Assembly: GCA_934177725.1 (NCBI GenBank)
Contig: CAKPPO010000008.1
Location: 1,189-65,188 of the forward strand
Origin: an uncultured Clostridia bacterium
GTDB taxonomy: Bacteria > Bacillota > Clostridia > TANB77 > CAG-508
Length of the DNA stretch: 64,000 nt
Reading direction: 5' to 3'
Below, in pieces: positions 484 to 62,371 of the stretch. The translations under genes and the position numbers were made by a program. The notes under the pieces are model-generated. The model ran no database searches. It had not been told where the DNA came from and saw only the letters and a program-made list of their open reading frames with translations. Position 1 is the stretch's first letter. Every line of letters begins with the position of its first letter.

Positions 484-977
484 TGAGTATGTATCCTTTT
501 TTTGGTCCTTCGTTTTATAGGAGACCTTCACCTTATTACTCAAATAATGCTTCCATTTATAGTGCAAGGCGCACGGCAGAGCATAATTCAGATTATAATT
601 CTACTTGTAGTACAAGACTCAATTCTACTTATAATTTGAAGCGCAATTCACATTCTGATAATTTACATAATTCAAATCATTTTTCTAACAATAATAGTGA
701 AACACATTGTTCCCCTAGGTTTTCCAATTCAAAGCAACAAGAAAAATTTAGTAATTCTAATTTTTCTTCTAACAATTCTACTAGAAATAATGAAAATTGC
801 TTACCATATATAAATTCGTCTTTTGATGATAATTACTCTGATGAATGTTTTGAAATATTTGGTTTAAAACTTCATTTTGACGATTTGCTTATCATTTGTA
901 TATTATTTTTTCTTTATCAAGAAGATGTAAAAGATACTTATCTTTATATTTCTTTAATTTTATTATTGCTAAGTTAA
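480..977 (+). CDS. hypothetical Ser/Asn-rich low-complexity protein with hydrophobic C-terminal tail
   Basis: 165-aa ORF, translationally coupled to the previous ORF and followed directly by a palindromic terminator. No family recognised. Confidence 0.4.
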   Translation: MMSMYPFFGPSFYRRPSPYYSNNASIYSARRTAEHNSDYNSTCSTRLNSTYNLKRNSHSDNLHNSNHFSNNNSETHCSPRFSNSKQQEKFSNSNFSSNNSTRNNENCLPYINSSFDDNYSDECFEIFGLKLHFDDLLIICILFFLYQEDVKDTYLYISLILLLLS

Positions 978-1002
978 AAAAATCCGCTATAGCGGATTTT
1001 TT
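977..1002. terminator. palindromic intrinsic terminator, copy 1 of 6 (core ATCCGCTATAGCGGAT at 982..997)
   Basis: A-tract, 6-bp GC-containing stem with TATA loop, then T-tract, immediately after the stop at 977. Confidence 0.8.
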
Positions 1003-1103
1003 GTTTTACTATTGATATTTAGGTGTACATAATATATACTACAGACATAAAATTTATATTCTAATCTATTTTTTTCTTACATTATCAAAAGGAGGTATGC
1101 TTA

Positions 1104-11677: not shown

Positions 11678-11760
11678 CAATTAGGGCCTGTCCCTAATTG
11701 TTACCTTTTCCCAGTTAGGGAATGTCTCTAATTGCTACTTTTTCACAATTTGTGACATTT
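11678..11760. repeat. tandem REP-like hairpins (CAATTAGGG-cctgt-CCCTAATTG; CAGTTAGGGaatgtCTCTAATTG; CACAAATTTGTG-type)
   Basis: Palindromes read directly in the intergenic gap between the two coat genes. The CAATTAGGGAC motif recurs at 34288..34310. Confidence 0.6.
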
Positions 11761-15918: not shown

Positions 15919-16039
15919 ATCTTGTCCCTCTTCTTAACCATTTTTATATTATTATAATTGTTATACTAACTTTTGTCTATAATATATATAAGATTATTAA
16001 ATTTCATACCTTACAATGCCTTTTTATAAATTGTATGCT

Positions 16040-16136
16040 CCAAAAGGGACAGATTAACCAAAAGGATTTTTTAGTCGTTCGAGCTGAAAGCGAGTTACGA
16101 ATAAAATATGCAGAGGCAACGTCCCTAAAGGTAATT
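16040..16136. repeat. REP-like element: CCAAAAGGGACAGATTAACCAAAAGG .. 55-nt GC-richer core .. AACGTCCCTAAAGGTAATT
   Basis: The end modules are identical or near-identical to 37698..37741 and to the reverse complement of 59868..59916. The core resembles the centre of the 39961..40210 element. It abuts the stop codon of the ZIP transporter gene. Confidence 0.6.
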
Positions 16137-18296: not shown

Positions 18297-18325
18297 AAAA
18301 AAATCCGCTATAGCGGATTTTTTTT
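18297..18325. terminator. palindromic terminator, copy 3 of 6 (core 18303..18318)
   Basis: AAAAAAATCCGCTATAGCGGATTTTTTTT, 5 nt after the stop of the surface protein gene. Confidence 0.8.
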
Positions 18326-18329
18326 ATTT

Positions 18330-19586
18330 CTATTTTATCATTTTTAATTTTTTATATTTTATATATGCAATTATAGTAGTTCCTATTAGTACCACTATCA
18401 TAATTGTTAATCCTATTCCTACTCCTGTTTGTGGTATTGTTCCTGTTGCTATCGTTTTATCTTCTTCTCCATTTGTTGATGTGTTGTTGTTTGTGCTACC
18501 ATTTGCATTTCCTTGGTTATTATTATTGTTGTTATTTGAAGCTGCTACAACTGTTACTGTACATGTTGCTTTTTTGTTTCCATCTTTGGATACAACTGTA
18601 ATAATTGTAGATCCTATTTTTTTAGGTGTTACTGTTCCATTATTATCTACTGTTGCTACACTTTCATCGCTAGAACTCCATGTAACTATTTTGTTTGTTG
18701 CTTTTTCTGGATTAAATGTTGGTGTTAATTTTAGTGTTTTTCCTAACTCAACTTTTTCTGTTCCTGGCAAAGATATACTTTCCAATGCTACGTCTGGTTG
18801 TAAGTTATCTACTAATATATAACCATATAAGTCTCTAGTATTCTCTCCTCCTTGAAAGTATAACCACATATAATATAAGCCACTATCTGGAACATTCACT
18901 GTTTTTTCTGTATAACCAAAACCTATCTTATTAGAACTTCCATATCCATTCCAATATCCCCAACTTTTCCAATTTGCTGTTGGTACTTTTGTTTTAAGTA
19001 ATGATGCTAATTCTAAATAATTACCATTTTTACTTTTTATTTCTTTATATTTATTTATCAATGTTTCATCTGTTATTTTTTCATATTGATAAAATGGTTT
19101 ACTATTTTTTGAATTCCAGTAATTTACATTTATGCATTCAGCCTCTTTTGTGCTAAATTGTTTTCCATTATTTATTACAGTATAATTGGTTACTTTTAGA
19201 AATGGTATAGATAAATCTACTTGAAAATGATCTAAAATAATACTATCTGTTGTTTTGTCTTTTATAGTTATATAACCTTTTTCAACAGCTGTTATTACAT
19301 CTGTAAATTTTACATTATCTCCTGTAATTTCAATGTTTGCTGTTGATTCTGTATAGTCTGTTATTAAATACCACTCTCCATCTTTAACTTGTGTTGCTGC
19401 TGTTTTTGTAAGTCCAAATTGATACTCGTGTCCTTTATCTAATGTTAGACCTGAAAAATAGAATTTTTGAGTTCCAGTAGTGTTAGGATCTTTTTCTACA
19501 CTTACTGCTGCATTTGCAATGTTAGGTATTAATACCATTGCTAGTGCTATAATAGATAATATCAATATTCTTTTTACTTTTGTCAT
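18330..19586 (-). CDS. cell-wall-anchored surface protein with Big_2 (Ig-like) domain
   Basis: GGAGGTG RBS and signal peptide MTKVKRILILSIIALAMVLIPNIANA. Big_2 segment LKLTPTFNPEKATNKIVTWSSSDESVATVDNNGTVTPKKIGSTIITV. Poly-Asn linker, then IPQTG plus TM segment plus KYKK sorting signal. Confidence 0.7.
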   Translation of the reverse strand: MTKVKRILILSIIALAMVLIPNIANAAVSVEKDPNTTGTQKFYFSGLTLDKGHEYQFGLTKTAATQVKDGEWYLITDYTESTANIEITGDNVKFTDVITAVEKGYITIKDKTTDSIILDHFQVDLSIPFLKVTNYTVINNGKQFSTKEAECINVNYWNSKNSKPFYQYEKITDETLINKYKEIKSKNGNYLELASLLKTKVPTANWKSWGYWNGYGSSNKIGFGYTEKTVNVPDSGLYYMWLYFQGGENTRDLYGYILVDNLQPDVALESISLPGTEKVELGKTLKLTPTFNPEKATNKIVTWSSSDESVATVDNNGTVTPKKIGSTIITVVSKDGNKKATCTVTVVAASNNNNNNNQGNANGSTNNNTSTNGEEDKTIATGTIPQTGVGIGLTIMIVVLIGTTIIAYIKYKKLKMIK

Positions 19587-19950: not shown

Positions 19951-20224
19951 CTTACCTTTTCTCCTTTCTAAAAAAATTGTATAAATAAATTCTTTTTTGT
20001 AGAATTCTGCAATTAATATATCATTTAAAAATATAAATGTAAATAGTTTTTCATATATTTATGTGTTTATATATTTATATATATTATGTCCTTTTATTTC
20101 TAAAATATATTGCAAAAGATTTATTATTAATTATCTAATAGAAGAAAATATTAATTGTATTAAATGTAAAGTATAATATCTGGTAAATAAAAAAATAGAG
20201 AGAATAAAAAATGAAAAAGCAAAG

Positions 20225-20250
20225 AAAAAATCCGCCATAGCGGATTTTTT
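20225..20250. terminator. palindromic terminator, variant copy 4 of 6 (core ATCCGCCATAGCGGAT at 20230..20245)
   Basis: A-tract, hairpin and T-tract downstream of rdgB. Confidence 0.75.
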
Positions 20251-20277
20251 CTGTTTTTCATTTTTTATAGCCTTTAT

Positions 20278-27651: not shown

Positions 27652-27809
27652 ATGATTATCCTCCATAATTTCTTTGCTCATTATATCTATTAATAGTAAA
27701 AAAGTCAATACATTTTTGAACGTTTGTTTTGTTGTTTCTAATGTTTAAATGCTATTATTTTAATGTTTTAAACTTGTTCAAGCAATAATCTGGTCTTTTA
27801 GCAGTTATC

Positions 27810-27835
27810 AAAAAATCCGCTATAGCGGATTTTTT
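27810..27835. terminator. palindromic terminator, copy 5 of 6 (core 27815..27830)
   Basis: AAAAAATCCGCTATAGCGGATTTTTT, 6 nt after the stop of the Rpn-like gene. Confidence 0.8.
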
Positions 27836-27840
27836 GATAA

Positions 27841-28704
27841 TTATACGTTTTTCTTTAATTCTAAAATTTGTTTTTCTTGTAACCCTGTTGTTTTTATTAT
27901 ATCTTGTATTGGAATATTTAGTTCAAGCATCTTTTTAGCTACTTGTTCTATTCCTTCTTTTATTCCTTCTTTTATCCCTTCTTCTTTAGCATGTCTTAAT
28001 CCATTTTTTTCATCTCTTATTGCTTTTTCTCTTAATTCTGCTACTCTTCTTAATTCCTTGTCTTTACTTATTTTTTCTAATTCATTCATAGCTTCTTTTA
28101 TTTCTTTATTATCTTCCATTATTTTTGATACCTCGCTTTCGTTAGGGTCATTTATAAACATTACCCATTGTGCTAGTTCATTTTTTGGCTCTTCTTTTAG
28201 CATTCTTCTTGCTTTTGGTATCTCTATTATATATAATTCAAATACATCTGTCAATTCTATTTGCTTGCCTGTTGATACTTCTCTTATTTTCCATTTGGTA
28301 CTTAACTTTTGTACTTCTTTAGTCTTTTCTAACTCATAATCTATTATTATTATGCCTATTACTTTATTCAGTTTTCCATAATCATCACCTTTTACTAATT
28401 GACCTGCATATATTCTACTCCAGTAAAACAAAAATCTTTCTGCTGTATCTTTGTTATCTGCTAGTTGAATTTCTATATCACATATTGTTCCATTATCTAA
28501 TGTTGCTTTTAAATCTACTATCCCTAATTTCTCTTCTGGGTACTTTCCTACAAGATGCTTATCATTATCTAAATTTACTTTTTGTATTTTTTCTTTTGTT
28601 GCAGCTTGAATCATAGCTTTTGTTATTTTTTCATTACCTTCTCTAAATAAGGCATGAAATACTACATCTATTTTTGGCTTTAATAGAGTTAATTTTTCTC
28701 CCAT
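27841..28704 (-). CDS. Rpn-family recombination-promoting nuclease / PD-(D/E)XK putative transposase
   Basis: N-terminal LLKPKIDVVFHALF.. and GIVDLKATLDNGTICDIEIQ (D..E.Q nuclease core), with a repetitive EGIKEGIKEGIE C-terminal tail typical of this family. Confidence 0.7.
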   Translation of the reverse strand: MGEKLTLLKPKIDVVFHALFREGNEKITKAMIQAATKEKIQKVNLDNDKHLVGKYPEEKLGIVDLKATLDNGTICDIEIQLADNKDTAERFLFYWSRIYAGQLVKGDDYGKLNKVIGIIIIDYELEKTKEVQKLSTKWKIREVSTGKQIELTDVFELYIIEIPKARRMLKEEPKNELAQWVMFINDPNESEVSKIMEDNKEIKEAMNELEKISKDKELRRVAELREKAIRDEKNGLRHAKEEGIKEGIKEGIEQVAKKMLELNIPIQDIIKTTGLQEKQILELKKNV

Positions 28705-28978
28705 ATTTTGCTTCCTTTCAAATTATATTTTAAATTTCATAAAATATAGAATTACCTCCTTGTCTTTAGATTTTATTTAACATATTGATTTTTTATAGAT
28801 TTAAATTTTTTTGAATAAAGTTTTTTGTTAAATAATTGTTTTTGATTTTATGTAACTTAATAAATTTATTAAATCATATTTTTATGTAAATCACAAGAAT
28901 TTTTCATCGTAAAATTTCGACAAAATATGATACTAATACAAAGTAAATATATTTCTTTACAAATGATGTTTAAAGAGC

Positions 28979-29004
28979 AAAAAATCCGCTATAGCGGATT
29001 TTTT
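28979..29004. terminator. palindromic terminator, copy 6 of 6 (core 28984..28999)
   Basis: AAAAAATCCGCTATAGCGGATTTTTT downstream of the coupling-protein gene. Confidence 0.8.
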
Positions 29005-29014
29005 ATTCTTTATT

Positions 29015-33064: not shown

Positions 33065-33166
33065 AATTTTAGAGACGGACCTAAAAATTTGATTAGTACG
33101 TATTAAATGTCCAAAAGGAACACTTTTTAGTGACATTTTTTGTGTCGCTAAAGAGTGTCCCTTCTG
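33065..33166. repeat. REP-like elements: AAATTTTAGAGACGGACCTAAAAATTT hairpin, plus the 56-nt hairpin CCAAAAGGAACACT..AGAGTGTCCCTTCTGG
   Basis: The first part resembles the TAGGGACGG ends of the RayT repeats. The second part (33111..33166) is about 75% identical to 35809..35863, with compensatory stem changes. Confidence 0.6.
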
Positions 33167-34225: not shown

Positions 34226-34287
34226 ATTTTTTACCTCCATATTAAAATCTTTTATAATTAACACTGTTCCAAATTGAGAAATTGTTA

Positions 34288-34310
34288 CAATTGTGGACTG
34301 TCCCTAATTG
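34288..34310. repeat. REP-like imperfect palindrome CAATTGTGGACTGTCCCTAATTG overlapping the murF stop codon
   Basis: Same CAATTAGGGAC/GTCCCTAATTG motif as at 11678..11700. Confidence 0.5.
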
Positions 34311-37604: not shown

Positions 37605-37630
37605 TTTTCTCTTCTCCTTTATTAATTAAT

Positions 37631-37741
37631 GTACCAAAAGGGACACTTTCACCTTTGGGGACGTTTCCTTTTGGAGTATTGTACAAAATAAAATATCCAA
37701 AAGGGACAGATTAACCAAAATGAAACGTCCCAAAAGGTAAT
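37631..37741. repeat. cluster of REP-like modules (CCAAAAGGGACAC..CCTTTGGGGACGTTTCCTTTTGG; CCAAAAGGGACAGATTAACCAAAATGAAACGTCCCAAAAGGTAATT)
   Basis: Lies between sleB and ypeB. The modules are shared with 16040..16136 and 59808..59916. Confidence 0.65.
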
Positions 37742-39948: not shown

Positions 39949-39960
39949 AAATAATTTTTA

Positions 39961-40210
39961 AATTTTAGGGACGGGCTTTTTACAATTTGCATCTTATTAA
40001 ATAGTTTATTCTTAAAACTTTATAATATATTGTTTTTTATACCTTGGTGTCGCGGTCAGCAGTTTAAAAAATTACTAGTACGTTGACCGCTCCATTCGCA
40101 CTCGCTTTAGCTTGTTTGGTCGCTTACGCGGTATTGCAAAACAATATATTATAAAATTTCTAATTAAATAGTAAATAGCTGCAAATTGTAAAAAGCTCGT
40201 CCCTAAAATT
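39961..40210. repeat. 250-nt nested inverted-repeat element with REP-type ends and a GC-richer core
   Basis: The ends AATTTTAGGGACGGGCTTTTTACAATTTGCA (39961..39991) and TGCAAATTGTAAAAAGCTCGTCCCTAAAATT (40180..40210) are inverted, with 1 mismatch. A second inner inverted pair is TTATAATATATTGTTTT. The core is 40047..40140. Confidence 0.65.
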
Positions 40211-40230
40211 TACTTTTTTTGCTATTTTTG

Positions 40231-40279: not shown

Positions 40280-40356
40280 GGTTCAGTAGCTCAGCTGGAT
40301 AGAGCAACGGATTTCTAATCCGTGGGTCGGGGGTTCGAATCCCTCCTGGATCACCA
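40280..40356 (+). tRNA. tRNA-Arg (anticodon UCU)
   Basis: 77-nt cloverleaf folded by hand: acceptor GGTTCAG/CTGGATC, anticodon loop TT-TCT-AA, T-loop GGTTCGAATCC, encoded CCA. Confidence 0.85.
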
Positions 40357-40405: not shown

Positions 40406-40521
40406 CATTTTTACTTTTATTATTTTTTTCAAGTCGTATTTGTCATATAAATATTTTATTTAGGGTGTCAAAAGGGTGTCAGTACATCGATAAGTGTTTC
40501 TTTATTTCATACTTTTTATAT

Positions 40522-41946
40522 TTAATTCTCCCAAAAAGCTTTATATGCTCTGTGAGCTTCATATATATCAAATTTACTTGTTACTTCATATGGAGCATGC
40601 ATTGAAAGTACTGGTACACCTGCATCTATTACATCTACACCTTTATTAGCTAAAATGTAGGCAATTGTGCCTCCACCACCAATATCTATTCTTCCTAATT
40701 CTGCAAATTCATATGCTACATCTTCTTTTTCAAATATATTTCTAATCATAGCTACAAATTCTGCATTTGCGTCTGAAGCGCCAGATTTGCCTCTTGCACC
40801 AGTATATTTGTTAAGTCCTAATCCTCTTCCTAAATATCCTGCATTATTTTTTTCATAAGCTGATGCATATATTGGATCATATGCTGCATCTACGTCTGCA
40901 GATAACATTTTTGAATTGCAGAATACTTTATCTAATAAGTTTGGTCTATTTATTCCTAATTTATTTAATATTTCTGAAACAAATGTATCAAATACATTAG
41001 ATTCCATTCCTGTATTTCCCATGCTTCCGATTTCTTCTTTATCAGAAATAATGCATACCGCTGTTGTTTTTGGATTTTCTAAATTTAATAATGCTGTTAA
41101 TGAAGTATATACACATACTTTATCATCTTGTCCATATGCTGCAACCATACTACTATCAAATCCCATGCTTCTTGCACGGAATGCAGGTACTATTTCTATT
41201 TCTGAACTTACAAAATCCATTTCTGTAATTCCATATTTTTGATTTAATATATTCATTATATTTAATTTTACAGAATCTGCACCTTTTTCTCCTTCAAATG
41301 GAATACTTCCTATTAAAAGATCTAAATCTTCTCCTTTAATTCCTTCTTTTAATTTTCTTTCCATTTGTTCAGATGCTAAATGTGGTAATAAATCTGTAAT
41401 TGTAAAAATAGGATCTGATTCATCTTCACCAATTTTTACTTCGATTTTTTCTCCACTTGGTTTTACTATAACTCCATGAATTGCAAGAGGTATTGTTGTC
41501 CATTGATATTTTTTTATTCCTCCATAATAATGTGTTTTTAAATATGCTAATCCTGTATCTTCATATAATGGATTTGGCTTTAAGTCTAATCTTGGAGAAT
41601 CTGCATGGCTTCCTATAATATTTATTCCATTTTCTATAGAATTTTGACCTATTATTGCTAGATACATACTTTTATCTCTATTTATATAATATATTTTATC
41701 TCCTGCCTTTAAGTTTTCAAATTCACATATATTTTTAAAGCCATTCTTTTCTGCTAATTCTTTTGAACTTTTTACAATTTCTCTTTCAGTTTTTGAATTA
41801 TTTAAAAAGTTCATATAATCTGCACAATATGAAAAAATTTCTTCTTTCTTTTTACTTTCTATTCCTTCCCAACCTGTATTCGTTTTGCGGAATAGTTTTT
41901 CCTTTAAACTCTCTTTTTCTGTCAATTCTTTTAGCATTTTCATCAT
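40522..41946 (-). CDS. M18 family aminopeptidase
   Basis: 474 aa, typical of aminopeptidase 1 / aspartyl aminopeptidase-like proteins (..IIGSHADSPRLDLKP.., ..DKEEIGS.., ..SMHAPYE..). The start may be one of three nearby ATGs. Confidence 0.75.
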   Translation of the reverse strand: MMKMLKELTEKESLKEKLFRKTNTGWEGIESKKKEEIFSYCADYMNFLNNSKTEREIVKSSKELAEKNGFKNICEFENLKAGDKIYYINRDKSMYLAIIGQNSIENGINIIGSHADSPRLDLKPNPLYEDTGLAYLKTHYYGGIKKYQWTTIPLAIHGVIVKPSGEKIEVKIGEDESDPIFTITDLLPHLASEQMERKLKEGIKGEDLDLLIGSIPFEGEKGADSVKLNIMNILNQKYGITEMDFVSSEIEIVPAFRARSMGFDSSMVAAYGQDDKVCVYTSLTALLNLENPKTTAVCIISDKEEIGSMGNTGMESNVFDTFVSEILNKLGINRPNLLDKVFCNSKMLSADVDAAYDPIYASAYEKNNAGYLGRGLGLNKYTGARGKSGASDANAEFVAMIRNIFEKEDVAYEFAELGRIDIGGGGTIAYILANKGVDVIDAGVPVLSMHAPYEVTSKFDIYEAHRAYKAFWEN

Positions 41947-45833: not shown

Positions 45834-45846
45834 TTATTGCCTCCTT

Positions 45847-55040: not shown

Positions 55041-55085
55041 AAAAAAGAACTTGTAATGTATTAACTTTACAAGTTCTTTTTTTAT
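55041..55085. terminator. bidirectional terminator AAAAAAGAACTTGTAA..TTACAAGTTCTTTTTTT
   Basis: Hairpin with flanking A/T tracts between convergent genes. Confidence 0.75.
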
Positions 55086-57244
55086 TATATTTTCATACTT
55101 AATTTTACCTTTTGTCTTTCCATATCTATTGCTATAACTTTTACTTTTACAACATCACCTACTGAAACTATTTCAGATGGATTTTTAACAAACTTGTCAC
55201 TCATTTCAGATATGTGTACTAATCCATCATGTTTTACTCCAACATCTACAAATGCTCCAAAATCTATTACATTTCTTACTGTTCCTGTTAATATTTGTCC
55301 TTCTCTTAAGTCTTCAAATTTTAAAACATCACTACGAAGAACTGGCTTTGGCATTTCTTCTCTTGGGTCTCTTCCCGGTTTTGAAAGCTCATCTATAATG
55401 TCTTTTAATGTCATGCTTCCTACTTGCAATTCTTTACTAGTATTTTCTACATTTACTCTTGCTAATTTTTCTTTTATTTCTTTTAAAGAATCTTTATTTA
55501 ATAAATCTTCCTTTTTGTATCCTATAGATTTTAATAAACTTTCTGCTACTTCATAGCTTTCTGGGTGAACACTTGTTATTTCTAATGGATTTTTTCCGTT
55601 AAATACTCTTATAAATCCTGCACATTGCTCAAATGCTACTTTTCCTAATTTTGGAACCTTTAAAAGTTCTTTTCTTTCTTTTAGTTTTCCATTTTCATCT
55701 CTATATTTTACAATGTTATTTGCAATAGTTTTATTTATTCCAGACACATAAGATAAAAGTGATGGTGTTGCAGTGTTAACATCTACACCTACTTTATTTA
55801 CTGCATCTTCAACAACACCTGTTAAACTTTCTCCTAATTTCTTTTGATCTACATCATGTTGATATTGTCCTACACCTATTGCTTTTGGCTCTATTTTTAC
55901 AAGTTCAGCAAGCGGATCTTGCAATCTTCTTGCTATTGAAATTGCTCCTCTTAAAGAAACATTTATATCTGGGTATTCTTCTGTTGCAAGCTTAGATGCA
56001 GAATATACTGATGCTCCCGCTTCTGAAACAATTGCATAATGTACTTCTTTTCCATATTTTTCTTTAACTTCTTTTATAACATCTGCTACAAACATTTCAG
56101 ATTCACGAGAAGCTGTTCCATTTCCAATTGCAAACATATCTACATTGTATTTTGCAATTAAATTAATTAAAACTTTTTTAGCACCTTCAACATCATTTTG
56201 AGGTTCTGTTGGGTAAATTGTTGTTGTGTCTAATAATTTTCCAGTTTCATCAATTACTGCAATTTTGCAACCTGTTCTATAAGCAGGGTCAAATCCAATA
56301 ACAGTTAAACCTAAAAGTGGTGCTCCAAGTAATAATTGTTTAGCATTTTGTCCAAATACTTTTATTGCTTGTTCTTCTGCTTTTTCAGTTAAATCTGAAC
56401 GAATTTCTCTTTCTATTGATGGTTCAATTAATCGTTTCCAACTATCTAAAATTGTATTTTTTAACATTTCTGTAAATTGTGTATTTCCTTTTATAATGTC
56501 TTTTTCCATTATTTCTAGTATTTTTTCTTCAGGCTTTGTTATTTTTACTTTTAAAAATTCTTCTTTTTCTCCACGATTAATTGCCAAAATTCTATGGCTT
56601 GGAATTCTATTTACTTTTTCACTAAAATCATAATACATCTCATAATTTGATTTTTCATTTTCTTTAGCTGCTTTTGTTTCAATTATTCCATCTCTATATG
56701 TAAGTCTTTTTATTTGTTTTCTATATTCGGCATTATCTGAAATATTTTCTGCAATTATATCTAATGCTCCTGCAATTGCCTCTTCTACAGAATTTACTTC
56801 TTTTTCTTCATTTAAGTATTCTTTTGCTTTATCGTAAATAGGTGTTTTTTCTTGTTGCATATAAATAATATTAGCTAAAGGTTCTAATCCTTTTTCTTTA
56901 GCTATAGTTGCTCTTGTCCTCTTCTTTTGTTTATATGGTCTATAAATATCTTCAACTTCTGCTAAAGTTTTTGCAATTTGCAATGCTATAACAATCTCAT
57001 CTGTTAACTTTCCTTGGCCTTCAATTGAATTTACAACCTCTTGTTTTCTTGTCTCCAAATTTCTTAAATATGTAAGTCTTTCTCCTAAATCTCTTAAAGT
57101 TTCATCTGAAAGCCCACCTGTAACCTCTTTTCTATAACGTGCAATAAATGGTATTGTATTTCCTTCATCTATCAACGCTACTGTCTTTTCAACTTGGCTC
57201 TCCTTTATATTTAATTCTTCTGCTATTTGTTTATTTATATTCAT
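55085..57244 (-). CDS. tex: Tex-like transcription accessory protein (YqgF/HhH/S1 domains)
   Basis: N-terminal ..TIPFIARYRKE.. signature and a C-terminal S1 domain. GGAGG RBS before the internal ATG. Confidence 0.9.
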   Translation of the reverse strand: MNINKQIAEELNIKESQVEKTVALIDEGNTIPFIARYRKEVTGGLSDETLRDLGERLTYLRNLETRKQEVVNSIEGQGKLTDEIVIALQIAKTLAEVEDIYRPYKQKKRTRATIAKEKGLEPLANIIYMQQEKTPIYDKAKEYLNEEKEVNSVEEAIAGALDIIAENISDNAEYRKQIKRLTYRDGIIETKAAKENEKSNYEMYYDFSEKVNRIPSHRILAINRGEKEEFLKVKITKPEEKILEIMEKDIIKGNTQFTEMLKNTILDSWKRLIEPSIEREIRSDLTEKAEEQAIKVFGQNAKQLLLGAPLLGLTVIGFDPAYRTGCKIAVIDETGKLLDTTTIYPTEPQNDVEGAKKVLINLIAKYNVDMFAIGNGTASRESEMFVADVIKEVKEKYGKEVHYAIVSEAGASVYSASKLATEEYPDINVSLRGAISIARRLQDPLAELVKIEPKAIGVGQYQHDVDQKKLGESLTGVVEDAVNKVGVDVNTATPSLLSYVSGINKTIANNIVKYRDENGKLKERKELLKVPKLGKVAFEQCAGFIRVFNGKNPLEITSVHPESYEVAESLLKSIGYKKEDLLNKDSLKEIKEKLARVNVENTSKELQVGSMTLKDIIDELSKPGRDPREEMPKPVLRSDVLKFEDLREGQILTGTVRNVIDFGAFVDVGVKHDGLVHISEMSDKFVKNPSEIVSVGDVVKVKVIAIDMERQKVKLSMKI

Positions 57245-57262
57245 TATTTTTCCTCCGAACAA

Positions 57263-57310
57263 TAGGGACGGTCTTTTTCGTTCCGAATTCGGAACACTTG
57301 GGACACTCCT
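57263..57310. repeat. RayT left inverted repeat TAGGGACGGTCTTTTTCGTTCCGAATTCGGAACACTTGGGACACTCCT
   Basis: Read directly from the sequence. Lies between the tex start and the RayT stop. Confidence 0.8.
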
Positions 57311-57315
57311 TATGT

Positions 57316-58098
57316 CTAATCTTTCTTTTTTATTTCTCTATAATCGTTTAATATTTTACTTAATTTTATTCTACTTATTCCTATATTTTCTGCTAATTTT
57401 GTTTTTGTCGGTTTCAACTCCATTGAATTATACAATTTTTTTATCAATCTTTTGTCTTCTTGTAATTCTTTTAATGTTATCTCTTCTTTTTTTATAAACT
57501 TATCTATTTCTTCTTGTACTTTTTCTTCTGTAATTTCTTCTTTTTCTAATTCTTTAAATAGTTTTTCATCATATTCGATCTTTAAAAATTCTTTTAAATA
57601 ATTATATTTTGAATTGAATATCTTTTGTATTATTTCTTTTGTAATAATTCCTTTTTTATTTATATAATCATTATAACTTGAATATTTATATTCTTTCTCT
57701 AATCTTACAATTCCAGCTTTTACTGGATTCATATGCACATATTTAATACACTTTGTTAAATAATCTTGATTATATATTTCCTTACATTCAAATCTATTTC
57801 TGAATACATATCCTACTCTTTTTTCCTCTTTATTGTAGTTTATTGCATATGTTGTATTTAATTTTCTCATAAATATAGTAAGCTCATTTATATCTTCTGT
57901 ATATATAATTATATGTACATGATTTTCCATTACACAAAAACTTATAATGTCTATTTTTTGCTTTTCTTTAAAAAATTTCATCAAATAAATATACTTTTCT
58001 TTATACTTATTATTATAAAATATCTTTTCTTTTTTTATTCCTTGGACCATTACATGAAAAAATCCATTCACTAAATCTTTTCTTGCTTTACGGGGCAT
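57316..58098 (-). CDS. IS200-like Y1 (HUH) transposase of the RayT / COG1943 type with C-terminal HTH-like extension
   Basis: MPRKARK.. N-terminus, HUH motif ENHVHIII and catalytic-Tyr region YVHMNPVKAG. 260 aa, longer than IS200 TnpA. Confidence 0.8.
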   Translation of the reverse strand: MPRKARKDLVNGFFHVMVQGIKKEKIFYNNKYKEKYIYLMKFFKEKQKIDIISFCVMENHVHIIIYTEDINELTIFMRKLNTTYAINYNKEEKRVGYVFRNRFECKEIYNQDYLTKCIKYVHMNPVKAGIVRLEKEYKYSSYNDYINKKGIITKEIIQKIFNSKYNYLKEFLKIEYDEKLFKELEKEEITEEKVQEEIDKFIKKEEITLKELQEDKRLIKKLYNSMELKPTKTKLAENIGISRIKLSKILNDYREIKKKD

Positions 58099-58158
58099 AA
58101 TACTACCTTCTTTCTTTTTATTATTTAGCCCCTATTTCATTTTTTCCTTTTTTATTAA

Positions 58159-58206
58159 AGGAGCGTCCCTCATGTTCCGAATTCGGAACGAAAAGGACCG
58201 TCCCTA
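58159..58206. repeat. RayT right inverted repeat AGGAGCGTCCCTCATGTTCCGAATTCGGAACGAAAAGGACCGTCCCTA
   Basis: Reverse complement of the left repeat with 5 mismatches. Confidence 0.8.
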
Positions 58207-58209
58207 GTG

Positions 58210-59790
58210 TTACTCGATTCCTAAATATTCATTATAAGTTACTTCTCTATCTACAACTCTATCTAGTTTTATATCTATTATTCTATTTGCTACTGTTTGT
58301 GTTAGTTGATGGTCGTGTGATGTAAATATAATATTTCCTTTAAATTTTGTCATTCCTTCATTTAATGCTGTTATACTTTCCATGTCAAGATGGTTTGTTG
58401 GTTCATCCATTATTAAGAAATTTGCTCCTGAAAGCATCATTTTTGAAAGTACACATCTTACTTTTTCTCCACCTGATAGTACTTTTACATATTTAAGTGC
58501 TTCTTCACCAGAGAATAGCATTCTTCCTAGGAAACTTCTTACATATGTTTCGTCTGGGTCTTTTGAATATTGACGAAGCCAATCTGTTATTGTCATATCT
58601 TCTTCAAATAAATAGTTGTTGTCTTTAGGGAAATATGTATTTGTAATTGTAGTTCCCCATTCAATTTCACCTTCGTCTGGCTCTAGTTCTCCAGCTATTA
58701 TTTGGAATAATACTGTTTTTGCATTTTCATTATCTGCTAAAAATGCTATTTTATCATCTGCTTTTACTACAAATGAAACATTATCTAATAATTTTTCTCC
58801 ATTTATAGTTTTTGAAATATTTTTAACTTTTAATATTTCTTTTCCAGGTTCTCTATCTGGTTTGAAATCTATGTATGGATATCTTCTATTTGATGGTTTT
58901 ATTTCATCTAATTCTATTTTTTCCAATGATTTTTTTCTTGATGTTGCTTGTTTTGATTTTGAAGCATTTGCACTAAATCTTGCAATAAATGCTTGTAATT
59001 CTTTTATTTTTTCTTCTTTCTTCTTATTTTGTTCTTTCATTTGTTTTGCTAAAAGTTGGCTTGATTCATACCAGAAATCATAGTTTCCTGGATATACTTT
59101 TATTTGTCCAAAGTCAACATCTGCAATATGTGTACATACTTTATTTAAGAAATATCTATCGTGTGATACTACTATCACTGTGTTTTCAAAATTAATTAAG
59201 AATTCTTCAAGCCATGCTATGCTTTTTAAATCTAAGTCGTTTGTAGGTTCGTCCAATAGTAATATATCTGGATTTCCAAATAATGCTTGGGCTAAAAGTA
59301 CTTTTACTTTTTCTTTTGCTTCTAGTTCACTCATTAATTTATAATGATTTTCTGTTTCTATTCCTAAATCATTTAAAAGTGCAGCTGCATCAGATTCTGC
59401 ATTCCATCCATCTAATTCTGCAAATCTTTCTTCTAATTTTGCAGCTTTCATTCCATCTTCTTCACTAAAATCTGGTTTTGCATAAATAGCATCTTTTTCT
59501 TTCATTATATTATATAATTCTTGGTTTCCCATTATAACTGTATCCATTACAGTATATTCTTCGTAAGCAAAGTGATCTTGTTTTAAAACAGATAGTCTTT
59601 CTGTTTTTTCCATTGTTACTTCACCTTTGCTTGGTTCTAATTCTCCTGATAAAACTTTTAAAAATGTTGATTTTCCTGCACCATTTGCACCAATTATTCC
59701 ATAGCAACATCCTTTATTAAATTTAATATTTACGTCTTCAAATAGTGTTCTTTTTCCAAATCTAATAGTAACACCTATAGCATTTAACAT
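58210..59790 (-). CDS. ABC-F family ATPase (translation-associated, YbiT-like)
   Basis: Two ABC cassettes (GANGAGKST; LSGGEKVR) joined by a charged linker, with no TM domains. Confidence 0.85.
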   Translation of the reverse strand: MLNAIGVTIRFGKRTLFEDVNIKFNKGCCYGIIGANGAGKSTFLKVLSGELEPSKGEVTMEKTERLSVLKQDHFAYEEYTVMDTVIMGNQELYNIMKEKDAIYAKPDFSEEDGMKAAKLEERFAELDGWNAESDAAALLNDLGIETENHYKLMSELEAKEKVKVLLAQALFGNPDILLLDEPTNDLDLKSIAWLEEFLINFENTVIVVSHDRYFLNKVCTHIADVDFGQIKVYPGNYDFWYESSQLLAKQMKEQNKKKEEKIKELQAFIARFSANASKSKQATSRKKSLEKIELDEIKPSNRRYPYIDFKPDREPGKEILKVKNISKTINGEKLLDNVSFVVKADDKIAFLADNENAKTVLFQIIAGELEPDEGEIEWGTTITNTYFPKDNNYLFEEDMTITDWLRQYSKDPDETYVRSFLGRMLFSGEEALKYVKVLSGGEKVRCVLSKMMLSGANFLIMDEPTNHLDMESITALNEGMTKFKGNIIFTSHDHQLTQTVANRIIDIKLDRVVDREVTYNEYLGIE

Positions 59791-59807: not shown

Positions 59808-59916
59808 TTCCTTTTTGGACATTTTCTTAATTATAGTTTTTCCATTTGGACGTTTTATTTTAGGCAGTACCCAAAAGGAAACGTCCCCAAAGGTTAATCT
59901 GTCCCTTTTGGTAATT
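59808..59916. repeat. cluster of REP-like modules in the ABC-F upstream region
   Basis: The reverse complement reads CCAAAAGGGACAGATTAACCTTTGGGGACGTTTCCTTTTGG..AAACGTCCAAATGG..ATGTCCAAAAAGG. The modules are shared with 16040.. and 37631... Confidence 0.65.
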
Positions 59917-60023
59917 TATTCTTTGGTATTATATACAATTTTTTGACTTTTGTAAAGGAATATTACGGACAAAAGGATTTTCAATGCTTTACCAAAAAAT
60001 GAAAGTCATTTCGACTTTCATTT

Positions 60024-61434: not shown

Positions 61435-62088
61435 CTATTTATTTTTTAATGTATATTGACTTATATCTGGTTCAACAAATATTGTATCTTCTACATTATT
61501 AAATTCATATTCTCTATCTGAAACAGTTTCATCTTCGATTACTTTAACTAAAAGACCTGTATCTTTGTCAATATATATTTTAGTTCCTTTAGAGGTTAAT
61601 GATGTTGTAGAAGTAAATCCTTTTATAACATAACATTCTTTGTCGTTGCATTTTTCAGATTTTATATTAGAAATTATACTTCCTATAAATGTTTGCCATT
61701 TATTATCTGTTTCTAATTGATTATAAATATTTACTGACATTAGTGTTGAAGTATCTAATTGAGCTATTTTTGAGTCTTTTGTTTCTGTAAAAATATCTAC
61801 TCTTTCTCCATTATTATACATAGATATTTTTATTTCATTTTCGTTTGAAGTTTTTTCTAGAAAAACTGCTTGTTTATTATCTTTTTGATAATATTTCATT
61901 ATTATTTTTGTTCCATCTTCTTTTGTTGATTCTGATTTTACAAAATAATTTGTACTATTTGAATATTTAGATATTTTATTTTGTAAATTTCTAATTATTA
62001 TATAATTTCTTATTGTATGAATTAAAGTAAGAACTAGTAAAATTATTAATATGATTCCTATTACTTTTAATATTTTTTTAGTCCTCAT
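61435..62088 (-). CDS. hypothetical membrane-anchored extracytoplasmic protein
   Basis: AAAGGAGTG RBS and N-terminal anchor MRTKKILKVIGIILIILLVLTLI. Preceded by a c-di-GMP-I riboswitch. No family recognised. Confidence 0.55.
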   Translation of the reverse strand: MRTKKILKVIGIILIILLVLTLIHTIRNYIIIRNLQNKISKYSNSTNYFVKSESTKEDGTKIIMKYYQKDNKQAVFLEKTSNENEIKISMYNNGERVDIFTETKDSKIAQLDTSTLMSVNIYNQLETDNKWQTFIGSIISNIKSEKCNDKECYVIKGFTSTTSLTSKGTKIYIDKDTGLLVKVIEDETVSDREYEFNNVEDTIFVEPDISQYTLKNK

Positions 62089-62104
62089 AAAAATCACTCC
62101 TTTT

Positions 62105-62187
62105 CTTTCGTGCAACCTAGCTATCATGAGCACTCAGCTTTTAGACCTATGGCTTTGCGTCATAAACTTTCGTTTATTTTGCCTTTA
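62105..62187 (-). promoter_or_regulatory. c-di-GMP-I (GEMM-I) riboswitch
   Basis: The minus strand reads AAAGGCAAA-AUAAAC-GAAA-GUUUAU-GACGCAAAGCCAUAGGUCUAAAAGC..GAUAGCUAGGUUGCACG. The GGCAAA, GNRA hairpin, GACGCAAAGC.AU.GGUCUAA and GGUUGC blocks match the class consensus. It ends about 15 nt before the RBS. Confidence 0.7.
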
Positions 62188-62371
62188 TACAAATTCTATG
62201 TCTATTATAACATAATTTTACATAATTTACAATATTTAACTAACTTTACCTTTGCACATAAAAAAGCGAGCCTAAAATTTTCTATCAAATGTAAATTTTA
62301 AGAAAATTTAAGGCTCGCCATATTTATCTAGTACAGAAATTCCTCCTACAAGGAGAACTTTCTTACTATAT

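What the first reader, a model, noticed from the sequence alone, without database searches (positions are those of the whole stretch)
57263..58206. RayT-type transposase flanked by 48-nt inverted repeats with an embedded perfect palindrome
The 260-aa protein has the HUH (NHVHII) and catalytic Tyr (YVHMNPVKAG) regions of IS200-like Y1 transposases, with the longer RayT/COG1943 architecture. The gene is bracketed by TAGGGACGGTCTTTTTCGTTCCGAATTCGGAACACTTGGGACACTCCT and its reverse complement, matching at 43 of 48 positions. Each repeat contains GTTCCGAATTCGGAAC plus two GGGAC motifs. This is the REP/RayT layout described mainly in Gammaproteobacteria, seen here in a very AT-rich spore-forming Firmicute. 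It is wedged tightly between tex and an ABC-F gene.
Basis: partly seen in the sequence, partly recalled or inferred. Interest (0 to 1): 0.7.

Follow-up and report, generated by a model that had tools for sequence, protein, structure and literature searches.

The report
Domesticated RayT-type transposase with cognate repeats
A single-copy, vertically inherited relative of the REP-associated tyrosine transposases sits between two housekeeping genes of an uncultured gut Clostridium, flanked by inverted copies of a ~60-nt repeat that related genomes carry at many other gene ends; it is a new example of a known kind of system.

Summary
ORF 57316-58098(-) encodes a 260-aa HUH/Tyr protein. It is bracketed by 54-nt inverted repeats (89% match), and each arm holds the palindrome GTTCCGAATTCGGAAC and two GGGAC boxes.

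- **Protein.** Sequence profiles and a predicted structure place it nearest E. coli TnpA_REP (PDB 4ER8), not IS200/IS605 transposases. It has the class-2 Y---NP signature, the downstream Ser motif and a C-terminal helix-turn-helix.
- **Gene.** It is not a multicopy IS. Orthologues at 99-66% identity all lie between abcF and tex. Their dS equals that of the neighbours, and dN/dS is 0.15-0.26.
- **Arms.** They co-evolve: the GGGAC boxes are invariant, and the hairpin stem changes by compensatory substitutions in both arms.
- **Dispersal.** A scan of genome collections found at least 134 copies in about 40 Clostridia MAGs, mostly without a gene nearby. Most lie 5-11 nt after a stop codon. The window's own species has at least 2 solo copies and its sister species at least 8.
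- **Matching.** Solo copies match the arms of their own clade in 45 of 45 cases.

This is the RAYT/REP layout, and more precisely the "TIRYT/TIRtron" variant of Di Nocera 2013 (subclass 2.1-like, Quentin 2018). It is a new member of a known kind. That the protein acts on the repeats is inferred, not shown.

The parts
57316..58098 (-). RayT/TIRYT gene, 260 aa. N-terminal HUH-Y1 nuclease domain (H60, H62, Y120, N124-P125, S140-S141) and a C-terminal helix-turn-helix of about 65 aa.
   Evidence: ORF. Pfam Y1_Tnp E=1.8e-9. NCBIfam REP_Tyr_transpos 69.7 bits. Invariant residues in 25 homologues. PDB profile hit 4ER8. AF2 pLDDT 86.9 and Foldseek top hit 4ER8. C-terminal HTH.
58154..58212 (-). Upstream repeat unit (right arm), GGGAC-sense on the minus strand. 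It starts 4 nt after the abcF stop codon and has the same orientation as abcF and rayT.
   Evidence: nhmmer E=3.1e-18, inverted repeat I1, conserved in L001, L005, L012 and L017.
57257..57314 (+). Downstream repeat unit (left arm), GGGAC-sense on the plus strand, so inverted relative to the gene. Its 5' GAAC abuts the tex Shine-Dalgarno sequence, and its 3' end overlaps the rayT stop region.
   Evidence: nhmmer E=1.6e-18, inverted repeat I1, orthologous loci.
57280..57295 (.). Perfect 16-nt palindrome GTTCCGAATTCGGAAC: the inner hairpin of the left unit.
   Evidence: The stem covaries across 139 unique units.
58174..58189 (.). Perfect 16-nt palindrome GTTCCGAATTCGGAAC: the inner hairpin of the right unit.
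57264..57275 (+). GGGAC box 1 of the left unit (AGGGACGGTCTT).
   Evidence: Sequence. AGGGACG is invariant in all copies found, although the search pattern required it.
57300..57311 (+). GGGAC box 2 of the left unit (GGGACACTCCTT). It corresponds to the published TIRYT motif GGGGWSAS, matching 7 of 8 here and 8 of 8 in L012.
   Evidence: PMC3733652.
58194..58205 (-). GGGAC box 1 of the right unit (AGGGACGGTCCT).
58158..58169 (-). GGGAC box 2 of the right unit (GGGACGCTCCTT).
58128..58137 (-). AAATAGGGGC motif about 30 nt upstream of the rayT ATG, conserved in all four orthologous loci. It may be a promoter or operator element; its function is not tested.
58210..59790 (-). abcF (ABC-F ATPase), the upstream synteny anchor.
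55085..57244 (-). tex, the downstream synteny anchor. The start is taken as the ATG at 57244, not the TTG at 57262.

Best explanation
This is a domesticated class-2 HUH/Y1 single-strand DNA nuclease-ligase, a RAYT (TnpA_REP) of the TIR-flanked "TIRYT" type. It is fixed at one chromosomal site between abcF and tex in a lineage of uncultured, AT-rich gut Clostridia, together with two inverted copies of its cognate repeat of about 60 nt.

**Anatomy of the unit.** (G)AAC-N3-4-[A/G]GGGAC-R-NNCC-TTTT(C), then a 5-7 bp hairpin, then N3-4-GGGAC-R-NNCC-TT. That is two direct GGGAC boxes around a stem whose sequence is free to change as long as it still pairs.

**Shown**
- The gene is single-locus, inherited vertically and under purifying selection.
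- The same units occur as solo copies at many other intergenic sites in related genomes. Most lie 5-11 nt after a stop codon, in the orientation of the upstream gene.
- The solo copies carry the clade-specific variant of their own RayT's arms.

**Inferred mechanism**
- The N-terminal domain recognises the hairpin plus GGGAC box on single-stranded DNA. It cleaves and rejoins there through Tyr120 and the H60/H62 metal site, as E. coli TnpA_REP does on REP. In this way it disseminates and homogenises the units in trans.
- The gene itself cannot move, because its two arms are inverted. On any one strand only one arm shows the recognised sense.
- The C-terminal HTH probably adds binding to the GGGAC boxes.
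- Units persist where they do no harm or are useful. As RNA in the GGGAC sense they fold into a stable three-tier hairpin at mRNA 3' ends.
For: **Protein identity**
- Pfam Y1_Tnp.
- NCBIfam REP_Tyr_transpos 69.7 bits against IS200 19.6 bits.
- H60, H62, Y120, N124, P125 and S140 are invariant in 25 homologues at 39-83% identity. Y---NP is the class-2 signature (PMC6006769).
- The profile hits 4ER8 at E=2.5e-4 and ISDra2 at 0.5.
- The AF2 model (pLDDT 86.9) has 4ER8 as top Foldseek hit: E=1.6e-6, TM 0.72.
- The C-terminal HTH is supported.

**Fixed locus**
- The exact protein, and orthologues at 84, 73 and 66% identity, all lie between abcF and tex.
- dS(rayT) is 0.55/0.81/1.21. dS(abcF) is 0.66/0.57/1.12 and dS(tex) is 0.68/0.79/1.06. 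dN/dS is 0.15-0.26.
- Relatives that lack rayT at this site also lack the repeats there.
- Paralogue clades sit at other fixed housekeeping sites (recD2|comF, pyk|recJ). Each has its own inverted GGGAC-box repeats.

**Repeats**
- The arms are conserved in orthologous loci with coordinated stem changes in both arms: GTTCC..GGAAC, then GTTCCATTTTGGAAC, then GTGC..GCAC.
- 119 of 139 unique units have a perfect stem of at least 5 bp, against 3% of shuffles. At least 12 different stem sequences occur. RNAalifold finds 3 inner-stem pairs with double compensatory changes.
- The genome scan returned at least 119 stretches holding 134 copies. Only about 12 loci hold a RayT homologue.
- Lower-bound copy numbers are 17, 14, 9, 9 and 8 per MAG. 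UMGS1612 (RayT 98.5% identical, the same species) has 2 arms and 2 solo copies. UMGS1663 has 9 copies by the pattern (1 arm plus 8 solo; its other arm is not caught).
- 58 of 84 clean intergenic copies lie just after a co-oriented gene's stop codon.
- Solo copies best match the arms of their own clade in 45 of 45 cases.
- A filled site (L038, L040, L130) can be compared with the empty site in the window at 45834-45846.

**Not carried by mobile vectors**
- The pattern has 0 hits in viral contigs.
- No full-length homologue was found on plasmids or phages.
Against: - Nothing here shows that the protein binds or cuts the units.
- The window itself has no extra full copy. The full genome of the window's organism was not available.
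- The NCBIfam equivalog cut-off (80 bits) is not reached.
- The GTAG head that E. coli TnpA_REP reads is not conserved here.
- Many solo copies sit at orthologous positions in sister species. Much of the dispersal is therefore old, and recent mobility is not demonstrated.
- No clean 60-nt empty/filled pair was found.
- The outer two stems show only GC<->GU changes. This would fit selection on RNA structure that is independent of the protein.
Confidence: 0.72

Rival explanations
1. It is an ordinary autonomous IS200/IS605-type insertion sequence that happens to be seen once in this window.
For: Pfam Y1_Tnp hit. The gene is bracketed by repeats. AT content is higher than in the neighbours (GC 0.19-0.22 against about 0.30).
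Against: - It occupies the same abcF|tex position from 99% down to 66% identity, with dS equal to that of the neighbours.
- Its ends are inverted, not two same-strand hairpins.
- It is 260 aa with an HTH, and there is no tnpB.
- The IS200 model scores 19.6 bits against a cut-off of 55.
- Of 119 repeat-bearing loci, about 107 have no gene.
- Nothing was found on plasmids, phages or viral contigs.
Confidence: 0.03
2. The units are host RNA elements (3'-end stabilisers, terminators or translational operators) that spread and persist by selection on RNA structure. The RayT gene merely sits between two of them and does nothing to them.
For: - 58 of 84 copies lie right after a co-oriented stop codon.
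- The GGGAC-sense RNA folds to -24.7 and -30.5 kcal/mol (z = -3.9 and -4.7). This is stronger than the antisense (-19.3, z = -2.1) and much stronger than DNA.
- The outer and middle stems vary only by GC<->GU.
Against: - Every RayT paralogue clade examined has its own pair of inverted GGGAC-box repeats.
- Arms and solo copies co-vary by clade, 45 of 45.
- Relatives without rayT lack the units at this locus.
- GGGGWSAS-type TIRs flank TIRYT genes in unrelated phyla (PMC3733652).
- No terminator-like T-tract is present in the window copies.
- Twenty-five copies face the wrong way for a 3'-end role.
Confidence: 0.12
3. The whole module (arms plus gene) is still an autonomous but rarely moving transposon, a "TIRtron". 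The solo copies are footprints or abortive products rather than elements mobilised in trans.
For: - The module is absent from the abcF|tex site in more distant relatives, so it did arrive as a unit once.
- Paralogue modules exist at other sites.
- Inverted pairs 100-370 bp apart (L060, L123, L128, L136) look like internally deleted modules.
Against: - No second copy of any module was seen.
- The module shows long co-divergence with its neighbours.
- Y1 enzymes act on one strand, and inverted ends do not give two same-sense ends.
- The internal sequence of the short pairs shows no rayT remnant.
Confidence: 0.08
4. The protein has been recruited as a sequence-specific DNA-binding regulator or organiser. 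Its HTH reads double-stranded GGGAC boxes near gene starts and ends, and catalysis is secondary.
For: - A C-terminal HTH is conserved across the family.
- The GGGAC boxes are invariant while the stem is free to change.
- Twenty-five copies abut a gene start or RBS, including tex.
- GGGAC is about 9-fold enriched in non-coding DNA of the window.
Against: The HUH, Tyr, NP and Ser catalytic residues are invariant at 39-83% identity, so catalysis is under selection. There are no expression data.
Confidence: 0.05

Closest known systems
TIRYT / TIRtron (TIR-associated tyrosine transposase; Di Nocera, De Gregorio & Rocco 2013, PMC3733652)
   Same: - A RAYT-like gene is flanked by long inverted repeats rather than classical GTAG REPs.
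- The TIR carries a GGGGWSAS-type motif. Box 2 is GGGGACAC in L012 and TGGGACAC in the window.
- The protein is longer than classical RAYTs.
- TIR copies form moderately abundant dispersed families, arranged as singles, dimers and clusters.
   Different: - The published examples are Proteobacteria, Acidobacteria and others. The paper's main text does not mention Clostridia or Firmicutes.
- Here each arm has two direct GGGAC boxes around a covarying hairpin.
- Synteny and dS show long vertical inheritance.
- The units show a strong preference for the first 5-11 nt after a stop codon.
TnpA_REP / RAYT with REP/BIME or REPIN (E. coli YafM, PDB 4ER8; Nunvar 2010; Ton-Hoang 2012; Bertels & Rainey 2011; Bertels 2017, PMC5581495)
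   Same: - A class-2 HUH-Y1 fold. It is the best PDB match by sequence profile and by structure.
- A single-copy, vertically inherited gene.
- The gene is flanked by inverted copies of a palindromic repeat that is dispersed in intergenic DNA.
- Repeat variants track the cognate gene.
- Several paralogue/repeat pairs can exist per lineage.
   Different: - Only 16% identity to 4ER8.
- No conserved GTAG head.
- An extra C-terminal HTH.
- Copy numbers seen here are tens per genome as lower bounds, not hundreds.
- The host is a Firmicute. RAYT Group 1 was noted in Clostridia but not described further.
TnpA_Y1 subclass 2.1 / 2.1.2 (Quentin et al. 2018, PMC6006769)
   Same: - Y---NP motif.
- Serine motif after the catalytic Tyr.
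- Long protein with a C-terminal HTH. Family members hit HTH_23 and HTH_28.
- 20 of 26 published TIRYTs fall in this subclass.
   Different: - That study found no REP-like sequences near subclass 2.1 genes. Here a dispersed cognate repeat family is evident.
- No Bac_DnaA_C similarity was detected.
- Tree placement was not tested.
IS200/IS605 family TnpA (IS608, ISDra2)
   Same: The HUH/Y1 catalytic core and hairpin-containing ends. This is the likely ancestry.
   Different: - Those are short dimeric proteins of about 130-155 aa.
- They are multicopy and mobile.
- Their LE and RE hairpins lie on the same strand.
- They are often paired with tnpB.

None of these features applies here.

Membership tests
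RAYT / TnpA_REP (class 2 HUH-Y1) | HUH motif and catalytic Tyr in a Y1_Tnp core | tested here: met
   NHVHI and Y120. H60, H62 and Y120 are invariant in 25 homologues.
RAYT / TnpA_REP (class 2 HUH-Y1) | Class-2 Tyr signature Y---NP (PMC6006769) | tested here: met
   YVHMNP. N124 and P125 are invariant.
RAYT / TnpA_REP (class 2 HUH-Y1) | Closer to TnpA_REP than to IS200/IS605 TnpA | tested here: met
   NCBIfam 69.7 against 19.6 bits. PDB profile: 4ER8 at 2.5e-4 against 2XM3 at 0.5. Foldseek rank 1 is 4ER8, with TMt 0.72.
RAYT / TnpA_REP (class 2 HUH-Y1) | Reaches the curated cut-off of NCBIfam NF047646 (REP_Tyr_transpos equivalog, 80 bits) | tested here: not met
   69.7 bits. It is a relative of that equivalog group, not a member.
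RAYT / TnpA_REP (class 2 HUH-Y1) | Single or low copy number, vertical inheritance, housekeeping-like behaviour | tested here: met
   The same abcF|tex site from 99 to 66% identity. dS equals that of the neighbours and dN/dS is 0.15-0.26. Only one hit in the window.
RAYT / TnpA_REP (class 2 HUH-Y1) | Gene flanked by inverted copies of a palindromic repeat that is dispersed in the genome | tested here: met
   Arms. At least 134 copies in about 40 MAGs, mostly solo. The same species (UMGS1612) has at least 2 solo copies. No extra copy in the 64-kb window.
RAYT / TnpA_REP (class 2 HUH-Y1) | Conserved 5' GTAG head on the repeat (GTAG-REP type) | tested here: not met
   The two bases before AGGGAC vary (AT, CT, GG, GT, AA and others). 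The conserved head is GGGAC instead.
RAYT / TnpA_REP (class 2 HUH-Y1) | Binds and cleaves its REP as single-stranded DNA | not testable with these tools
   Needs biochemistry.
TIRYT / TIRtron (PMC3733652) | RAYT-like gene flanked by long terminal inverted repeats | tested here: met
   54-nt arms, 89% complementary. Conserved in orthologues and present in paralogues.
TIRYT / TIRtron (PMC3733652) | GGGGWSAS motif in the TIR | tested here: inconclusive
   Window box 2 is TGGGACAC or AGGGACGC (7 of 8 and 6 of 8). Orthologue L012 and most Lapin-clade copies have GGGGACAC (8 of 8).
TnpA_Y1 subclass 2.1.2 (PMC6006769) | C-terminal HTH-type domain (Bac_DnaA_C, HTH_23 or HTH_28) | tested here: inconclusive
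   An HTH is clearly present. The profile hits DeoR and sigma region-4 HTHs. HTH_23 is hit by 4 of 21 members and HTH_28 by 2 of 21. There is no Bac_DnaA_C hit. The window protein itself gets only sub-threshold HTH_3, HTH_Crp_2 and HTH_26 hits.
TnpA_Y1 subclass 2.1.2 (PMC6006769) | Conserved serine motif just after the catalytic Tyr helix | tested here: met
   Y137-x-x-S140-S141, with S140 invariant. It aligns with WPFST of 4ER8.
TnpA_Y1 subclass 2.1.2 (PMC6006769) | Placement inside the 2.1 clade of the published tree or MCL clustering | not testable with these tools
RAYT Groups 1-5 (Bertels 2017, PMC5581495) | MCL cluster membership | not testable with these tools
   No supplementary sequences are held. 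Group 1 is the only group the paper reports in Clostridia.
IS200/IS605 insertion sequence | Multiple near-identical copies of gene plus ends; presence on plasmids or phages | tested here: not met
IS200/IS605 insertion sequence | LE and RE hairpins on the same strand (direct orientation); short TnpA of about 130-155 aa; IS200 model above its cut-off | tested here: not met
   The arms are inverted. The protein is 260 aa. NF033573 scores 19.6 bits against a cut-off of 55.

The most novel reading that the evidence does not exclude
Gut Clostridia may host a multi-family RayT/GGGAC-box network comparable to the REPIN-RAYT system of Pseudomonas.
- Several RayT paralogues would each be fixed at its own housekeeping locus. 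Each would maintain its own population of two-box hairpin units by combined HTH (box) and Y1-domain (hairpin) recognition.
- The host would have co-opted the units as mRNA 3'-end structures that even supply stop codons. The window's 254-bp element at 39959-40212 and its other intergenic GGGAC elements would belong to sister families.
- A bolder extension: genes bounded by two same-sense units next to rayT (the GNAT gene in L012, the 185-aa ORF in L017) are moved in trans like IS608 cargo.
Probability: 0.25. Interest if true: 0.6.

Novelty: new member of a known kind. Interest (0 to 1): 0.42.

Why it matters
REP/RAYT systems have been studied almost only in Proteobacteria. Subclass 2.1 (TIRYT) proteins, the ones with an extra HTH, were reported to have no recognisable REP nearby. 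This locus offers three things:
- a clean Firmicute example with strong comparative support: synteny, equal dS, compensatory changes in both arms, and clade-matched solo copies;
- a simple, testable substrate, namely two GGGAC boxes plus a free-sequence hairpin;
- a hint that the units double as RNA structures at gene ends.

It would be a convenient system for asking how a domesticated Y1 enzyme and its repeats co-evolve outside Proteobacteria. It does not reveal a new kind of system.

Tried and rejected
1. **Single-sequence phmmer against the PDB** found no Y1 protein. A family profile was needed.
2. **Rfam.** Neither the arms nor the other GGGAC elements match a known family. Only long-hairpin noise came up.
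3. **Extra copies inside the window.** nhmmer with a 139-unit profile found only the two arms. It also gave weak partial hits at 39966-81, 40190-205, 33149-67 and 34263-307.
4. **Cargo-cassette idea.**
   - In UMGS1663 a Zn-ribbon gene lies between abcF and rayT, between two direct units.
   - Its homologues sit next to abcF in relatives that have no rayT and no units.
   - It is therefore ancestral, and was probably lost in the window lineage by recombination between the direct units. This example is rejected as evidence for cargo mobilisation.
   - The GNAT gene and the 185-aa ORF remain untested.
5. **Clean empty/filled sites.** A systematic flank BLAST among the fetched loci found none, because only repeat-bearing loci had been fetched. 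One informative site was found by hand, but it differs by more than the unit.
6. **Terminator reading.** The consensus scan finds no terminator at the arms.
7. **Placement in published RAYT groups or subclasses.** The reference sequences are not held.
8. **GTAG head.** TAGGGAC recalls the GTAGGGAC REPs of Pasteurellaceae in Quentin's Table S1. The TA is not conserved among copies, so I treat this as coincidence.
9. **"Family C" repeats** (CCAAAAGGGAC...). I first suspected they were solo copies. They turn out to be a separate element in the abcF 5'UTR.
Full report
**1. The observation**

- ORF 57316..58098(-) encodes 260 aa with ENHVHIIIY and KYVHMNPVKAG.
- The repeat finder reports one outstanding inverted repeat. 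Its arms are 57258-57311 and 58158-58211: 54 nt, 89% complementary, 846 nt apart.
- The palindrome GTTCCGAATTCGGAAC occurs twice in 64 kb even with 3 mismatches allowed. Shuffles give 0.02 expected.
- The neighbours are tex and an ABC-F gene.
- The abcF stop codon is 4 nt from the right arm. The tex Shine-Dalgarno sequence (57252-57256) touches the left arm. The tex start is taken as the ATG at 57244, as in the orthologues.

**2. The protein**

- Pfam gives Y1_Tnp at E=1.8e-9, plus a sub-threshold HTH.
- NCBIfam ranks REP_Tyr_transpos (69.7 bits, cut-off 80) far above IS200/IS605 (19.6 bits, cut-off 55).
- In an alignment of 25 homologues at 39-83% identity, H60, H62, Y120, N124, P125 and S140 are invariant. 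Y---NP is the stated signature of class 2 (TnpA_REP). The serine motif after the Tyr helix is stated for subclasses 2.1, 2.2, 2.3 and 2.6 (PMC6006769).
- A profile of the alignment finds E. coli TnpA_REP (4ER8) at E=2.5e-4 and ISDra2 TnpA only at 0.5.
- An AlphaFold2 model (pLDDT 86.9) has 4ER8 as its best Foldseek match (E=1.6e-6, TM 0.72 on the target). IS608, IS200 and ISDra2 transposases come next.
- The last 65 or so residues are a helix-turn-helix. The profile hits DeoR and sigma region-4 HTHs. Family members hit HTH_7, HTH_Tnp_1_2, HTH_23 and HTH_28.

**3. Not a multicopy IS**

- The exact protein is found only in the abcF-rayT-tex context, in several human-gut assemblies.
- Orthologues at 84%, 73% and 66% identity (P0009, P0026, P0041) sit in the same place.

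Between the window and these three loci, rayT diverges at the same synonymous rate as its neighbours:

| Gene | dS vs L005 | dS vs L017 | dS vs L012 |
|---|---|---|---|
| rayT | 0.55 | 0.81 | 1.21 |
| abcF | 0.66 | 0.57 | 1.12 |
| tex | 0.68 | 0.79 | 1.06 |

- dN/dS for rayT is 0.15-0.26. The gene has co-diverged with its neighbours under purifying selection.
- More distant relatives have abcF-(Zn-ribbon)-(PhD/ParE)-tex, with neither rayT nor the repeats. Gene plus arms therefore arrived once as a unit.
- Paralogue clades occupy other fixed housekeeping sites. P0081 and P0103 lie between recD2 and a comF-like gene. P0058 lies between pyk and recJ. Each has its own inverted GGGAC-box repeats.
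- No full-length homologue is on plasmids or phages.

**4. The arms co-evolve and have a defined anatomy**

In the orthologous loci both arms are kept. The GGGAC boxes never change, and the central stem changes in both arms together:
- window and L005: GTTCCGAATTCGGAAC
- L012: GTTCCATTTTGGAAC
- L017: GTGC-loop-GCAC

Alignment of many copies sets the unit at about 60 nt: (G)AAC-N3-4-AGGGACG-NNCC-TTTT(C), then stem-loop-stem, then N3-4-GGGAC-R-NNCC-TT.
- The few bases before box 1 repeat the 3' half of the stem. The unit is therefore two direct repeats of [half-stem, spacer, GGGAC box], with the complementary half-stem between them.
- In GC-rich Oscillospiraceae and Clostridiales MAGs the same box forms tandem arrays of 2-3 modules, GGAACGG-AGGGACGGTCYTTTTC-GTTCC. 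In two cases the array lies next to a RayT homologue of 27% identity.
- Of 139 unique units, 119 have a perfect stem of at least 5 bp. Only 3% of shuffles do. At least 12 different stem sequences occur.
- RNAalifold on 24 diverse units predicts a three-tier hairpin. The inner stem has three pairs with double compensatory changes. The two outer tiers vary only by GC<->GU.

**5. The repeat is dispersed**

The window has no further full copy.
- These hold 134 copies, almost all in uncultured gut Clostridia or Clostridiaceae MAGs. One hit, in Isoptericola, is probably chance.
- Only about 12 loci hold a RayT homologue.

Lower-bound counts per MAG:

| MAG | Copies | Note |
|---|---|---|
| Lapin-024 bin16 | 17 | |
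| Lapin-001 bin26 | 14 | includes 4 at the rayT locus |
| UMGS1663 | 9 | RayT 92% identical; 1 arm + 8 solo (second arm not matched by the pattern) |
| Lapin-012 | 9 | |
| Lapin-002 | 8 | |
| UMGS1612 | 4 | 2 arms and 2 solo copies |

- UMGS1612 is 97-98% identical to the window in DNA, and its RayT is 98.5% identical. It is the window's species.
- Oriented by the repeat, 58 of 84 clean intergenic copies have a co-oriented gene ending 5-11 nt upstream. The stop codon often overlaps the unit's first bases. Another 25 abut a gene start on the other strand, as the left arm does at tex. Only 1 lies between divergent genes.
- Within a genome, copies are 87-92% identical. Every solo copy best matches the rayT arms of its own clade, 45 of 45 across four clades.
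- At window 45834-45846 two genes are 13 nt apart. At the same site three other species carry a unit that supplies a TAG stop.
- In L012 a unit follows the corA stop. The window and L005 have a different palindromic element at that position.
- The pattern has no hit in viral contigs.

**6. How it most likely works**

*Shown:* a conserved, catalytically intact class-2 Y1 protein at a fixed locus, flanked by inverted copies of a repeat whose solo copies track it by clade.

*Inferred, by analogy with E. coli TnpA_REP/REP and IS608:*
- The enzyme binds the hairpin and a GGGAC box on single-stranded DNA and cuts and rejoins there. This spreads and homogenises the units in trans.
- Because the two arms are inverted, only one arm per strand presents the recognised sense. 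The gene itself is therefore immobile.
- The HTH probably reads the invariant GGGAC boxes.

*A second layer* is suggested by folding.
- The GGGAC-sense RNA forms a stable three-tier hairpin: -24.7 kcal/mol (z = -3.9) for the window's right arm, and -30.5 (z = -4.7) for the rabbit-clade consensus.
- This is stronger than the antisense (-19.3, z = -2.1). Single-stranded DNA folds only the inner hairpin.
- Together with the position after stop codons and the GC<->GU-only variation in the outer stems, this fits a role as an mRNA 3' structure.
- No canonical terminator is predicted.

**7. Comparison with what is known**

- Di Nocera et al. 2013 named RAYT-like genes flanked by long inverted repeats TIRYT/TIRtron. 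Many of those TIRs share GGGGWSAS, and some form moderately abundant dispersed families (PMC3733652). Box 2 here is GGGGACAC in L012 and TGGGACAC in the window.
- Quentin et al. 2018 placed 20 of 26 TIRYTs in subclass 2.1. These are long proteins with a C-terminal HTH, and no REP-like sequence was found near them (PMC6006769).
- Bertels et al. 2017 noted RAYT Group 1 in Clostridia, with flanking 16-mers at about 12 copies (PMC5581495).
- The present case is therefore a new member of this known kind. It adds a Firmicute lineage, a well-defined two-box unit, strong evidence of co-evolution, and a clear dispersed family for a subclass-2.1-like protein.
- It is not a member of the NCBIfam gammaproteobacterial equivalog, because it scores below the cut-off. 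It also lacks the GTAG head.

**8. Limits**

- No biochemistry was done, and there is no complete genome of the source organism.
- The counts are lower bounds from an exact pattern, a truncated scan and incomplete MAGs.
- Many solo copies are at orthologous positions in sister species, so recent mobility is unproven.
- Group and subclass placement could not be computed.

**9. Verdict**

It is a new member of a known kind and of moderate interest.

Noticed in passing
window 39959-40212: A 254-bp MITE-like element with 41-nt inverted arms (90% complementary) and a GC-rich core, next to tRNA-Arg(tct) at 40280-40356. Its termini, TAAATTTTAGGGACG(G/A)GCTT, are identical to the inverted repeats flanking a different RayT paralogue clade (P0058, between pyk and recJ; locus L144). 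It has no Rfam match. It is probably a non-autonomous, REPIN-like member of a sister repeat family whose RayT is not in the window.
   Followed up: partly
window 16022-16135, 37627-37740, 59871-59918: A repeat family, CCAAAAGGGACAGATTAACC...GTCCC(A/T)AAGG. Some copies carry a GC-rich insert of about 50 nt. The copy at 59871-59918 lies in the abcF 5'UTR between a TATAAT box and the RBS. It is present there in L005 and L017 but absent in L012. No Rfam family matches. It may be a leader RNA or another GGGAC-box element.
   Followed up: partly
window 976-1011, 1643-1678, 18297-18332, 20224-20259, 27809-27844, 28978-29013: Six copies of the hairpin AAAAAATCCGCTATAGCGGATTTTTT, which has A- and T-tracts on both sides. 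It looks like a repeated bidirectional terminator family.
   Followed up: no
window, whole: GGGAC/GTCCC is concentrated in non-coding DNA. Twenty of 28 occurrences fall in the 19% of the window that is non-coding (about 2.3 expected from base composition). Coding DNA has 8 against about 15 expected. Besides the items above, GGGAC-headed palindromes lie at 11680-11730 (two TTAGGG-N-GTCCCTAA sites), 33122-33161 (11 nt after a stop codon) and 34263-34307 (a degenerate arm-like copy overlapping a TAG stop).
   Followed up: partly
window 58128-58137 (-): The motif AAATAGGGGC lies about 30 nt upstream of the rayT start. It is conserved in all four orthologous loci, although the spacer around it has diverged. 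It may be a promoter or operator element.
   Followed up: no
L062 5395-6060 (UMGS1663); L012 6776-7577; L017 6787-7753: Extra genes sit beside rayT between two same-sense copies of the unit. They are a Zn-ribbon gene (L062), a GNAT acetyltransferase (L012), and 51-aa plus 185-aa ORFs (L017). The Zn-ribbon gene is ancestral next to abcF in rayT-less relatives. The window lineage therefore probably lost it by recombination between the direct units. The other two were not examined.
   Followed up: partly
L054 992-1741 and 6161-6934; L028 2814-3563: Some related MAGs carry a second RayT paralogue (38-40% identity) about 4.4 kb from the abcF|tex orthologue. It is flanked by its own inverted repeats, ACTAAAAGGGACGGCCCTTTTTC...ACTAAAAGGGACAGTCC.
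   Followed up: partly
units in Lapin MAGs (e.g. L039, L043, L086): Within otherwise identical units, the hairpin loop occurs in both orientations (ATTTT and AAAAT) in the same genome. This is what loop inversion by intrastrand template switching would produce, or recombination between inverted copies.
   Followed up: no
window 62108-62193 (-): A c-di-GMP-I riboswitch (76.5 bits), upstream of the 232-aa ORF at 61435..62133(-).
   Followed up: no
window 40430-40470: Downstream of gene 40522..41946(-) the window has the direct repeat AGGGTGTCAAAAGGGTGTCA. Two rabbit-gut MAGs (L030, L085) carry a full unit at the orthologous site. It may be a decayed or variant box.
   Followed up: no
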